From contig OX597816.1 in NCBI GenBank assembly GCA_951406725.2, positions 31,434,001 through 31,498,000 on the forward strand: a stretch of DNA of 64,000 nt. The letters are read 5' to 3'. The notes below the pieces were generated by a model. The model saw only the letters and a list, made by a program, of their open reading frames with translations, was not told the origin of the DNA and did no database searches. The stretch is from Octopus vulgaris (lineage: Eukaryota). Position numbers and translations under genes: made by a program. Of this stretch, positions 4,113 to 39,004 are shown one piece after another. How positions within the stretch are numbered: the first letter of the stretch is position 1; each line of letters begins with the position of its first letter.

Positions 4113-4730
4113 TGCCATCTCAATATGGCTAACCACTAGGGGTGGGTGTTACTGTAGCTTGTAGCCCCAGGAGAACATCTCCTCCAGCTTGCTATAGGAA
4201 CACTTTCTGTGCCCTATCGGTATTTGCAAAGGGAGGTCATCCTTCTCTCGTCAACTTAAGTGATACGCACGGACTGCAGTTTCTGGGTATTGACCCGTCA
4301 TCATCGCACGACAATCACCGGTTTTCGATGAAAGGTGTTCCCGATGCAAATATTTATATCCTTTTTCCAGTGACTTTTCGTCACTGATCTTGAGAAAGTG
4401 TATACAAGCAATAATAAATATCTGAACGAGGTATAAACAGTAACTGCACGACAATGTGAGGTATATTTGCCATCTCAATATGGCTAACCACTAGGGGTGT
4501 GTGTTACTGTAGCTTGTAGCCCCATGCATATCACTTAGGTTGACGTGGGAAGAATGACCTCCCTTTGCAAATATCGATAGGGCACAGAAAGTGTGCGTAC
4601 AGCCAGTGGGAGGAGATGTTCTCCTGGGGCTACAAGCTACAGTAACACCCACCCCTAATGGTTAGCCATATTGAGATGACAAATTGTCGTGCAGTTACTG
4701 TTTGTACCTCGTTCACAGATTTATTATTAA
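4113..4730. mobile_element. Non-coding hammerhead-bearing element (Penelope pLTR / retrozyme-like), head-to-head arms, ~350-nt monomer
   Basis: 4467-4524 directly repeats 4113-4169. 4523-4682 is the reverse complement of 4113-4271, and 4683-4728 is the reverse complement of ~4410-4455. A hammerhead motif lies at 4260-4318 (-). Confidence 0.75.
4260..4318 (-). ncRNA. Type I hammerhead ribozyme motif (C3 changed to A)
   Basis: Minus strand reads GTGATTGTC-GTGCG ATGATGA CGGG TCAATA CCCA GAAA CTGCAG TC^ CGTGC-GTATCAC. Stem III is the palindrome ACTGCAGT, the cleavage triplet is GUC, and stem I extends via GTGAT/ATCAC. Confidence 0.75.
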
Positions 4731-4914
4731 TTGATATATCAATATCAATGAATTGAATGCTCTTTTTAATGTAACACGAAATCGAACTTTTAAACATAAT
4801 CTAGTTTCTTAAACTTCATAAACGCGAAATATCATACAAGGCGAAACAGAAACACCTGCATCATTAGAAGAATAAATGAAGTTTATTGAAGGAATTTCTT
4901 TTTACGTCTTATAA

Positions 4915-5045
4915 GATTGGTTTGAAATTTTAGCACCAGACTAACATTTTCGGAGGAAGTGATGAGTCGATTACATACCAATGTCCAATATATCCCGCCA
5001 AGCATTTTGCCTGACCTGACAACCATCCTGCCAGATTGCCGCCAA
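4915..5045 (-). mobile_element. Degenerate SINE fragment
   Basis: Resembles the SINE copies at 21235, 42750 and 60975 (GGCGGC..CTGGCAG head; GAGTCGATTACAT and AAATTTCAAACC blocks). Confidence 0.5.
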
Positions 5046-36830: not shown

Positions 36831-37582
36831 CCTCGTCAGTAACCGGCCTAAACAACTAGATTATAACTCAGAGACAAGATAACACGTGTCCCATCATTAT
36901 ATGCTATAATTTTTCAAATATCGCGCGTAGGCGTATTTACAGTCAGCAATAGATACAATGCCGAGCTGAAACTTCGAAAATGCTAAGAACATATTCATAA
37001 GGTACATATATATACAGGGTGGCGAATACTCGTTATAAATATCACCACCAGTAGCCTAGCATGTATAAAAAGTTAATAGACAACATATGCGTATTTCAAA
37101 ATAGAAAATTACCCTTTAACAGGTAATTTTACATGCTAGAAATAGCAGCCAAATCGGCCAAAAAGCACAATTTTATAGCAAATTTCGAAGTAAATGAAAA
37201 ATAAAAACCTTTATCTTTATCTTGTCTCTGAGCTAAATGCTAGTTGTTTAGGCCGGTTACTGACAAGGATTCGCCTGGGAGATAATATGGTCTTGCTAAA
37301 TTATCTATTAAAATATAGCAAACGATATTATTCGCTAAAGTAACCCGAAACCATGTTATAACCGTTATATAACAAGGTAAAGGTTTTTATTTTTCATTTA
37401 ATTCGAAATTTGCTATAAAATTGTGGTTTTTGGCCGTGTTGGCTGCTATTTCTAGCATGTAAAATTACCTGTCAAAGGGTAATTTTCTATTTTGAAATAC
37501 GAATATGTTGTCTATTGACTTTTTTATACATGCTAGGCCACTAGTGGTGATATATATATAATGAGTATTCGCCACCCTATAT
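36829..37582. mobile_element. Non-coding hammerhead-bearing element (pLTR/retrozyme-like), head-to-head arms, ~480-nt monomer
   Basis: 37015-37213 is the reverse complement of 37378-37580, and 36829-~36885 is the reverse complement of 37218-37281. Hammerhead at 37254-37364. Ends at (TA)n. Confidence 0.8.
37254..37364 (+). ncRNA. Type I hammerhead ribozyme motif with ~80-nt stem II
   Basis: CGGTTA CTGACAA [GGATT..ATAATATGGT.TTGCTA..TAGCAA.ACGATATTAT..AACCC] GAAA CCATGT TA^ TAACCG. Stem I is a perfect CGGTTA/TAACCG helix. The inverted sister copy (TCGTCAG, ~36833-36839) retains canonical CTGACGA. Confidence 0.8.
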
Positions 37583-38295
37583 ACATATATATATATATAT
37601 ATATATATATATATATATATATATATATATACATAGGTACACACACATATGTATATATGCATATGTATATGCATATTACGTGCTTGATGCAGAAAGTATC
37701 CTTGAAGAAAGGAAAATAGAGGCTGGTGTTACTATATATTTTTATTTTCCCTGTAATTGTTTCATACTTTTGACTTTTTACGAAGTACATCATCTGCACG
37801 AATTTTGGCGTAATTCCAAATTCCAGGATCGGCTTTACGGTTTGCAATACCATGTTTTCCCTTTAATTGTATTTTGTTCCTCCCGTCTGTAAATATATAT
37901 AAATATCTATAGGTTTTATGCCCGAATGTTCATCGTCGAAATATTTTCAGTTATAATTTTTGTCTCTTTATTCCATGTTCATATGCATGTATATTTTATA
38001 TATCTAACCGATGCAGATTTATTTGTTTCTTTCCGTCAATATGCATCATTATCTCCAAATGCACTTATCTGGATTACTCGTTTATCAACTCTCTCATTAA
38101 GGGTGTTAGTCCTTGGAAATGATATCGGAGTGTAAGTTAGAAACATTTGACACTCTCAAGTCTTTTCTATACTGAGCATCTCGTGATCTTATTTGTTGGA
38201 TATATATGTATATGTGTGAATGCAATCACGAGTGCACGCGCGAGCGTTTGGATGCATATATATATATATATATATATATATATATATATATATAT

Positions 38296-39004
38296 ATTAA
38301 AAATTGAGGATAAAATCTATAAAAGAAAATATCAGTAGTCAGCGTGAAAAACCTCGTAAGAGAAAAAAATCCGTAAATTCTTCCTCTTTGAAAATATTCA
38401 TTTATATTATATTGAGGGCACTACTATTCGTAGATACCAACACGCTGAGGGACCAATGCGGTCAAAACTACTAAAAATAAACAAAATTTTACCGAATGCA
38501 AAACTTCAAAACACATCATTTTAAAAATATAAATGAATATTTTCAAAGAGGAAGAATTTACGGATTTTTTCTCTTACGAGGTTTTTCACGCTGACTACTG
38601 ATAATTTCTTTTAAAGATTTTATCCTCAATTGTTAATTTATATTTTTCACCGGAATAGTTCAATACTGAATTTTTTTATTCCGAATAGACAATTTTCACC
38701 GAAATGCATTGCGAATAAGCCCGCCATTTTCATAGACATGTAAAGATAAACATTCGGACATGCTACGACGAATTCTACGGTTGGCTATCGAGCTTGTAAT
38801 GTTATGTTTTTCTCCTATATTTCTTGAGTTTGTTGCACTGATGAACATAAAATGCATATTCTGCATTTAAATGCGAAATCACATGTGATATGTAACTGAA
38901 TTCTTTTATAAAATGATGTGTTTTGAAGTTTTGCATTCGGTAAAATTTTGTTTATTTTTAGTAGTTTTGACCGCATTGGTCCCTCTTAGCGTGTTGGTAT
39001 CTAA
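38296..39004. mobile_element. Non-coding hammerhead-bearing element (pLTR/retrozyme-like), head-to-head arms, ~500-nt monomer, inside (TA)n
   Basis: 38302-38409 is the reverse complement of ~38525-38631, and 38431-38523 is the reverse complement of 38909-39003. Hammerhead at 38832-38896. (TA)n on both sides. Confidence 0.85.
38832..38896 (+). ncRNA. Type I hammerhead ribozyme, near-canonical core
   Basis: GTTGCA CTGATGA [ACAT-AAAATGCA TATTC TGCATTTA-AATGC] GAAA TCACATGTGA TA^ TGTAAC. Stem I GTTGCA/TGTAAC extends via GAGTT/AATTC. Stem III is the 12-nt palindrome ATCACATGTGAT. Only the 10.1-11.1 pair (A.C) is non-canonical. Confidence 0.88.

What the first reader, a model, noticed from the sequence alone, without database searches (positions are those of the whole stretch)
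4113..39004. Three sequence-unrelated small non-coding elements share one ribozyme-anchored, head-to-head, circularly permuted architecture
Seen in sequence: the elements at 4113-4730, 36829-37582 and 38296-39004 share no obvious sequence. Each consists of two arms diverging from one junction. Arm 1 contains a hammerhead and ends with segment X. Arm 2, on the opposite strand, starts with X and continues into sequence that lies upstream of the hammerhead in arm 1. The segments therefore read as a circle or tandem multimer, with monomers of ~350, ~480 and ~500 nt. Arm 2 begins 0, 20 and 19 nt downstream of the predicted cleavage site. Established: Penelope-like pLTRs carry hammerheads and often have inverted 5' copies, and retrozymes are hammerhead-bearing non-autonomous retroelements with circular RNA intermediates. 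Inference: these are ORF-less, ribozyme-processed retroelements copied from self-cleaved multimeric or circular RNA by Penelope RTs, relics of which lie in this window. I cannot tell whether these particular families have been described.
Basis: partly seen in the sequence, partly recalled or inferred. Interest (0 to 1): 0.8.

Follow-up and report, generated by a model that had tools for sequence, protein, structure and literature searches.

The report
Penelope-type retrozymes with ribozyme-anchored inverted arms
Three unrelated short, non-coding repeats each carry a hammerhead-ribozyme motif and a back-to-back inverted copy that starts within about 20 bases of the predicted cut; they are likely parasites of Penelope-like jumping genes, a known kind, and the junction position may be a footprint of the ribozyme cutting in living cells.

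Summary
Observation confirmed. The window's only three type I hammerhead motifs (shuffles: mean 0.15) lie one each in the three elements. Each element is a head-to-head pair of arms from an ORF-less unit of 355, about 492 and 500 nt. The inverted arm starts 0 to +3, +16 to +20 and +15 to +19 from the predicted cut. E1 has a 13-bp target duplication around both arms; E2 and E3 abut (TA)n. Public contigs show that E3 is a multi-copy family with a head-to-tail join that closes the 500-nt unit.

This fits known biology. Animal non-LTR retrozymes are proposed non-autonomous Penelope-like elements (PLEs), and inverted 5' arms are a standard PLE insertion product. Circular RNA is not needed to explain the pattern, and cleavage was not tested.

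I did not find two things in print: retrozyme-size units carrying the PLE insertion signature, and the inverted arm starting at the cut. Outside the window the rule is loose: three further junctions fall at about -2, +37 and -43. Verdict: new variant of a known kind, moderate interest.

The parts
4089..4101 (+). E1 left target-site duplication (13 bp)
   Evidence: identical to 4728-4740
4102..4524 (-). E1 arm 1: about 1.2 units of a 355-nt monomer (end of X, Y, hammerhead, X)
   Evidence: direct repeat 4454-4524 = 4099-4169, 94%
4266..4310 (-). E1 type I hammerhead motif, palindromic loop 3, C3 replaced by A; predicted cut after 4272
4522..4727 (+). E1 arm 2 (inverted): starts 0 to +3 from the cut, ends about +217, with an 11-nt gap
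4728..4740 (+). E1 right target-site duplication
36818..37216 (-). E2 arm 2 (inverted): starts +16 to +20, runs through X, 120 nt absent from arm 1, and 65 nt of Y including an intact CTGACGA box
37217..37591 (+). E2 arm 1 (0.76 of a ~492-nt monomer), running into (TA)n
37254..37364 (+). E2 type I hammerhead motif with an 80-nt stem II region, 6-bp stem I, G8 replaced by A; predicted cut after 37358
38296..38527 (-). E3 arm 2 (inverted): starts +15 to +19, ends about +250 at (TA)n, a recurrent end of the family
38526..39003 (+). E3 arm 1: 478 nt of a 500-nt monomer, followed by (TA)n
38832..38896 (+). E3 type I hammerhead motif, intact core boxes, 10-nt palindrome in stem III, A.C at the base of stem II; predicted cut after 38890
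33590..35708 (+). E4 (outside the finding): decayed PLE-like copy with a GIY-YIG-like fragment (34225-34380) and an inverted arm (33590-33714 versus 35565-35708); possible decayed hammerhead near 35494-35551
   Evidence: PLE identity rests on motif and architecture, and the hammerhead is tentative

Best explanation
The three elements are dispersed copies of three unrelated, ORF-less, hammerhead-bearing repeat units of 355-500 nt, likely non-autonomous Penelope-like elements (retrozyme type) that a Penelope-type enzyme would have inserted by priming cDNA from both ends of a staggered DNA break. Shown: the units, the motifs, the head-to-head arms, the TSD or (TA)n flanks and the junction microhomology. 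Inferred steps: (1) a tandem locus is transcribed into more-than-unit RNA; (2) the weak hammerhead cuts at some repeats only, giving a 5' end at the cut and an uncut motif downstream; (3) the PLE protein nicks AT-rich DNA on both strands and primes two cDNAs at internal RNA sites; (4) one cDNA runs to the cut 5' end (arm 2), the other crosses an uncut or religated hammerhead and stops at a variable point (arm 1); (5) the two cDNA ends are joined through 1-3 nt of microhomology with loss of up to about 20 nt. A circular template is possible for arm 1 but is not required.
For: One hammerhead per element and none elsewhere in the window. A 13-bp TSD encloses both E1 arms, so they came in one event. 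Microhomology at 3 of 3 junctions. Arm-2 starts fall within 21 nt after the cut in 3 of 3; under uniform placement P = 1e-4 for a fixed arm and 8e-4 for either arm, window chosen after the fact. The E3 family lays 1012, 664, 1202 and 69 contigs in four runs, with head-to-tail joins in X14 (depth 350) and X1 (depth 103), and a recurrent end at 38643 into (TA)n (13, 20 and 5 contigs in X2, X5, X14) that matches arm 2's outer end. An unrelated hammerhead locus, L077, also has its inverted arm starting at the GUC. Literature: PAc nicks and extends both strands, prefers AT-rich DNA and initiates inside the RNA (PMC11167929); inverted 5' copies, one-sided 30-40 bp tails and (TA)n bias are PLE marks (PMC8557442).
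Against: No cleavage or circle was tested. All three window motifs are imperfect, and the A.C mismatch in E3 appears to be family-wide (no other letter listed at 38845). Two of 3 outside junctions miss the 0-20 nt window: +37 (2 contigs in X2) and -43 with the whole hammerhead in both arms (L035). In PAc, cleavage was dispensable for insertion in vitro and no RNA reads began or ended at the cut. Read laying listed no strand-change joints and no pile-up of starts, so no distribution could be drawn. The arms overlap by 65-125 nt, which needs strand displacement or two RNA molecules. No partner PLE was linked by sequence.
Confidence: 0.6

Rival explanations
1. Same elements and same PLE mobilisation, but arm 2 stops near the hammerhead because the RT likely stalls at the folded or protein-bound uncut motif, or because truncation lengths happen to favour that spot; no cleavage is recorded.
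For: E2 and E3 stop 15-20 nt short of the cut, not at it. PAc uses uncut RNA in vitro. Junctions at +37 and -43 exist. Earlier unchecked notes describe arms stopping just before the ribozyme (e1-9867701) or only a mild bias (e1-9850483).
Against: E1 (0 to +3) and L077 (about -2) reach past the 3' strand of stem I to the cut itself. Arm 1 crosses the motif in 3 of 3 elements.
Confidence: 0.25
2. Ordinary pLTR debris: truncated 3' ends of autonomous Penelope elements with the usual inverted arm.
For: Head-to-head inverted pLTRs are the common PLE product (PMC3846280, PMC8557442). E1's 47-nt extension is tail-sized. E4 in this window looks like such a copy.
Against: Sequence downstream of the cut runs into sequence upstream of the hammerhead within 355-500 nt with no ORF. 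The same 22-nt link seen in E3 arm 2 closes the unit in independent contigs. E2 and E3 extend 135-190 nt past arm 1's end, beyond a 30-40 bp tail.
Confidence: 0.08
3. The inverted arm arose by fold-back self-priming on an antisense template (proposal in PMC3846280) or by a later DNA rearrangement of a tandem repeat.
For: Published proposal for palindromic PLE junctions. Arm-1 strands fold well (z -2.4 to -3.6).
Against: The two arms start about 90-355 nt apart in unit register, so the junctions are not palindromes. A TSD encloses both arms in E1. The same layout recurs in three unrelated families.
Confidence: 0.07

Closest known systems
Animal non-LTR retrozymes (Cervera and de la Pena 2020, PMC7229834, passages read; Li, Clavereau and Pollet 2026, bioRxiv 10.64898/2026.07.22.740005, parts 1-3 of 5 read)
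   Same: ORF-less units of a few hundred nt, type I hammerhead, GC under 45-50%, head-to-tail joins, TSD longer than 4 bp, proposed PLE dependence.
   Different: The window copies are dispersed 0.8-1.2-unit copies with one hammerhead each, not arrays. They carry PLE-type motifs (long stem II, palindromic loop 3) and an inverted 5' arm, which the passages I read do not describe. Circles and cleavage were shown for published retrozymes, not here.
Insertion unit of EN+ Penelope-like elements (PMC8557442, PMC3846280, PMC2377424; passages read)
   Same: Head-to-head inverted 5'-truncated copy, partial tandem, one-sided tail, TSD of about 8-13 bp, (TA)n bias (proposed for Neptune, seen for Naiad), hammerhead in the terminal repeat (PMC4209133).
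   Different: No ORF: the whole unit is pLTR-sized. The passages read do not relate the start of the inverted arm to the ribozyme cut and call the origin of the inverted structure undefined.
Non-autonomous Chlamys elements such as MRC1 (PMC8557442, passage read)
   Same: Non-autonomous PLE derivatives that form pLTRs and head-to-tail insertions.
   Different: Algal, mostly without canonical hammerheads, and similar to a known autonomous partner at the 3' end; no partner was identified here.
L1 twin priming (recalled, not tested)
   Same: Two primers from one staggered break give a head-to-head inversion with junction microhomology.
   Different: Here the arms overlap by 65-125 nt in 3 of 3 elements, and one arm ends near a ribozyme site.

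Membership tests
Animal non-LTR retrozyme | Type I hammerhead in the unit | tested here: met
   each window copy has one departure from consensus
Animal non-LTR retrozyme | ORF-less unit of about 150-450 nt (51-972 in the 2026 preprint), GC under 50% | tested here: met
   355, ~492, 500 nt; GC 0.31-0.44; longest stop-free stretch 84 codons
Animal non-LTR retrozyme | Head-to-tail repetition of the unit | tested here: met
   E1 partial tandem; E3 join in X14 and X1; for E2 inferred from arm 2 only
Animal non-LTR retrozyme | [quoted passage not shown] | tested here: not met
   one motif per window element; arrays elsewhere in the genome could not be seen
Animal non-LTR retrozyme | Self-cleavage of the RNA | not testable with these tools
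   needs an in vitro assay
Animal non-LTR retrozyme | Expressed as linear and circular monomers | tested here: inconclusive
   join seen in X14, whose RNA status is a guess, and also in DNA run X1; contigs cannot show circles
EN+ PLE insertion unit | Inverted 5'-truncated copy head to head with the main copy | tested here: met
   3 of 3
EN+ PLE insertion unit | Variable-length TSD or microsatellite target | tested here: met
   E1 13-bp TSD; E3 (TA)n on both sides; E2 (TA)n on one side, no TSD found
EN+ PLE insertion unit | One-sided 30-40 bp tail | tested here: inconclusive
   E1 extension about 47 nt; E2 and E3 about 190 and 135 nt
Autonomous PLE | RT plus GIY-YIG ORF between pLTRs | tested here: not met
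   no ORF in E1-E3
Non-autonomous derivative of a named PLE family | Terminal sequence shared with an autonomous PLE of the same genome | not testable with these tools
   no genome held; no match between E1-E3 and E4 in the window

The most novel reading that the evidence does not exclude
The inverted 5' arm of Penelope-type insertions is a run-off cDNA from a ribozyme-cut RNA end. Its junction would then be a genomic fossil of hammerhead cleavage in vivo, and these retrozyme-size units, inserted with the Penelope signature, would be direct structural evidence that retrozymes move by two-ended Penelope priming on self-cleaved multimers.
Probability: 0.35. Interest if true: 0.7.

Novelty: new variant of a known kind. 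Interest (0 to 1): 0.43.

Why it matters
Three points are open in the papers read: what PLE hammerheads do in vivo (dispensable in vitro, PMC11167929), how the inverted PLE arm forms (undefined, PMC8557442), and how retrozymes are mobilised (to be elucidated, 2026 preprint). A multi-copy, ORF-less family such as E3 makes all three testable by counting junction positions in one assembly. If the count is flat, these are simply three more PLE-type retrozyme families.

Tried and rejected
Rfam scan: no hammerhead among 132 matches, nearly all microsatellite noise. Strict hammerhead descriptor: 0 hits, too narrow for these motifs. Exact E3 hammerhead pattern in metagenome contigs: 0 matches. Generic hammerhead pattern: 7 of 119 metagenome loci passed stem filters, and 2 of those 7 had an inverted arm; several of the other five had only about 300 nt of flank, so absence of an arm there means little; 0 of 120 viral loci passed. 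E4 protein fragment: no homologue, no Pfam family, a weak Atlas lead (GIY-YIG on 12% of members, score 0.87), one plausible relative P0002 among 3 hits, itself without a Pfam family. The E4 hammerhead was not picked by a relaxed scan, so its +19 offset is not counted. Pfam on 65 of the 103 listed ORFs (mostly microsatellite frames left out): no PLE RT. PMC5850863 and PMC5785218 are not held. The Adineta FASTA supplement is unreadable here and bioRxiv supplements are closed; either could bear on junction positions. Rejected: assembly artefact (arms differ by about 3-10%, E1 has a TSD); MITE with terminal inverted repeats (the arms are offset parts of one unit).

Full report
CONTEXT. The window is AT-rich, microsatellite-laden animal-type DNA with relics of Helitron, mariner and non-LTR elements (translations; names from recalled motifs). 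A SINE-like repeat suggests an octopus, from recall and not tested. No whole genome is held.

OBSERVATION. Self-alignment confirms two arms diverging from one junction in all three elements. Arm 2 copies the end of arm 1 and then continues into sequence that lies upstream of the hammerhead in arm 1. The three elements share no sequence (best E 0.26). A type I hammerhead scan with one core mismatch allowed found 3 motifs in the whole window, one in each arm 1, against a mean of 0.15 in 40 shuffles. All have 6-bp stems I and fully or nearly palindromic loop 3 regions. These are the marks described for PLE hammerheads, which are thought to act as dimers and cleave weakly (PMC4209133, parts 1-2 of 4 read). 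Each has a blemish: C3 is A in E1; G8 is A in E2 (intact in the arm-2 partial copy); E3 has A.C at the base of stem II. E2's stem II region is 80 nt and folds as a long hairpin.

GEOMETRY (+1 is the first base after the cut). E1: unit 355 nt; arm 1 covers about 1.2 units and ends at +170; arm 2 runs from 0/+3 to about +217; a 13-bp TSD (4089-4101, 4728-4740) encloses both. E2: unit about 492 nt; arm 1 ends in (TA)n at about +225; arm 2 runs from +16/+20 to about +415; no TSD found. E3: unit 500 nt; arm 1 ends at +113; arm 2 runs from +15/+19 to about +250; (TA)n lies on both sides. All three junctions show 1-3 nt of microhomology. Arm-1 5' ends are scattered (about +90, +350, +135 in the previous unit). 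The arms overlap by 65-125 nt. Substitution differences between paired segments run from 0 to 10%. No arm holds a stop-free stretch over 84 codons. Under uniform placement, the chance that all three arm-2 starts fall in a 21-nt window is 1e-4, or 8e-4 if either arm may count; the window was chosen after seeing the data.

FAMILY EVIDENCE. I laid four runs on E3 arm 1 only. 1012, 664, 1202 and 69 contigs were laid, covering 30 of 30 bins in each run, with many shared variants, so E3 is a multi-copy family. Two of the 3 listed joints close the unit head to tail: 39003 to 38526 with 22 letters between (X14, an RNA guess, depth 350) and 38992 to 38529 (X1, DNA guess, depth 103). The 22 letters match, with one difference, the link seen in the window's arm 2. 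Because the join is also in a DNA run, it does not show a circle. Contigs stop repeatedly at 38643 and run into (TA)n (13 in X2, 20 in X5, 5 in X14). That is where arm 2 ends, so arm 2 looks like a copy from near the cut to the family's usual 3' end. Of the hammerhead core positions only N7 (38842) is listed as variable. One shown loose end (X2, 2 contigs) aligns to the opposite strand at 38954-38927: another head-to-head junction, starting at +37. Only 24 of 217 loose-end rows were shown and no strand-change joints were listed, so no distribution could be built.

OUTSIDE TEST. A generic hammerhead pattern returned 119 metagenome loci (about 1/64 of the collection scanned). Seven passed stem filters and 2 of those had an inverted arm. 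In L077 the arm starts at the GUC (about -2, 74% identity); in L035 it starts at -43 and contains the whole motif. None of 120 viral loci passed. Tally: 3 of 3 in the window and 1 of 3 outside lie within about -3 to +20.

PENELOPE RELIC. The large RT relics are not evidently Penelope. At 33590-35708 lies a decayed element with an inverted arm (87% over 94 nt) next to (TA)n. It holds a Cys-rich, YIG-containing fragment, 38% identical over 110 columns to P0002. A Cys-rich linker before GIY-YIG is described for Neptune, Nematis and Naiad; the assignment is by motif and architecture only (searches gave no firm hit). Its arm starts at 35565 (16-nt exact match), 19 nt after a possible decayed hammerhead that my scan did not pick; I do not count it.

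MECHANISM. PAc protein nicks and extends both target strands, prefers AT-rich DNA, is predicted to be a dimer and starts cDNA inside the RNA (PMC11167929, parts 1-2 of 4 read). Two cDNAs primed from the two sides of one break and joined at their growing ends give exactly a head-to-head pair inside a TSD (inference). If the template is a more-than-unit transcript cut at its first hammerhead but not its second, one cDNA ends at the cut and the other crosses a hammerhead. Weak, dimer-dependent cleavage makes partial cutting plausible. A closed circle alone would not explain why arm 2 stops. Against this: the same paper found cleavage unnecessary in vitro and no RNA reads ending at the cut; E2 and E3 stop 15-20 nt short; and +37 and -43 junctions exist. 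Stalling at the uncut motif is the main rival.

COMPARISON WITH WHAT IS KNOWN. Non-LTR retrozymes are short ORF-less type I hammerhead repeats expressed as circles, with PLEs as likely mobilisers (PMC7229834, passages). A 2026 preprint argues they derive from pLTRs and leaves the mechanism open (parts 1-3 of 5; supplements closed). Head-to-head inverted arms, tails and (TA)n bias are standard for PLEs (PMC8557442, PMC3846280, PMC2377424, PMC8969392; passages). Opposite-strand hammerhead pairs 100-700 bp apart were noted in 2014. The window copies work like retrozymes and carry the PLE insertion marks, but they fail the two-hammerhead 'active' criterion and are untested for cleavage or circles. 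I found no paper relating the start of the inverted arm to the cut site, or describing retrozyme-size units with inverted arms (searches; open-access library only, two relevant papers not held). Earlier unchecked notes of this scan show fold-back PLE insertions to be common, with mixed positions relative to the ribozyme; I used them only as leads.

VERDICT. The finding is real and was read accurately. The class is known. The possibly new part is a junction bias at the ribozyme cut, supported by few cases and with counter-examples. New variant of a known kind; interest 0.43.

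Noticed in passing
window 33590-35708: Decayed PLE-like copy with an inverted arm beside (TA)n, a GIY-YIG-like fragment, and a ~320-bp tandem duplication (34842-35485, 79%) between the ORF relic and the terminal segment; the arm starts 19 nt after a possible decayed hammerhead.
   Followed up: partly
window 4676-4682 versus 4454-4466: E1 arm 2 lacks 11 nt at the spot where arm 1's outer end lies in the unit; this may mark a jump between two initiation sites.
   Followed up: no
window 38593 and 38611: Both E3 arms carry the same letters at two polymorphic sites, one of them the minority letter in the four runs; weakly suggests one template or subfamily.
   Followed up: partly
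window 10342-10752, 13226-13775, 16095-16668, 21093-21780: Four copies of a ~400-550-bp repeat with a central microsatellite, 70-91% alike.
   Followed up: no
window 30152-30393, 18356-18623, 36290-36376: Hairpin or MITE-like inverted repeats; the first has 40-bp arms around a (TA)n core.
   Followed up: no
window 22000-27300 (-) and 43000-49540 (+): Decayed non-LTR retrotransposon ORFs with CCHC and restriction-like endonuclease motifs (recalled), 70% alike over 490 bp and interrupted by (AAT)n/(GAT)n runs.
   Followed up: partly
window 1-1200 (-), 2700-3650 (+), 39000-42000 (-): Helitron helicase-like, mariner transposase-like and RT-like relics by recalled motifs.
   Followed up: no
L077 and L035 (minus strand, motif at 331-364 and 1501-1534): Hammerhead motifs with head-to-head inverted arms in ORF-poor, probably host-derived DNA within metagenome contigs.
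   Followed up: yes
window 55244-55532: Tandem duplication of about 146 bp, 83% alike.
   Followed up: no
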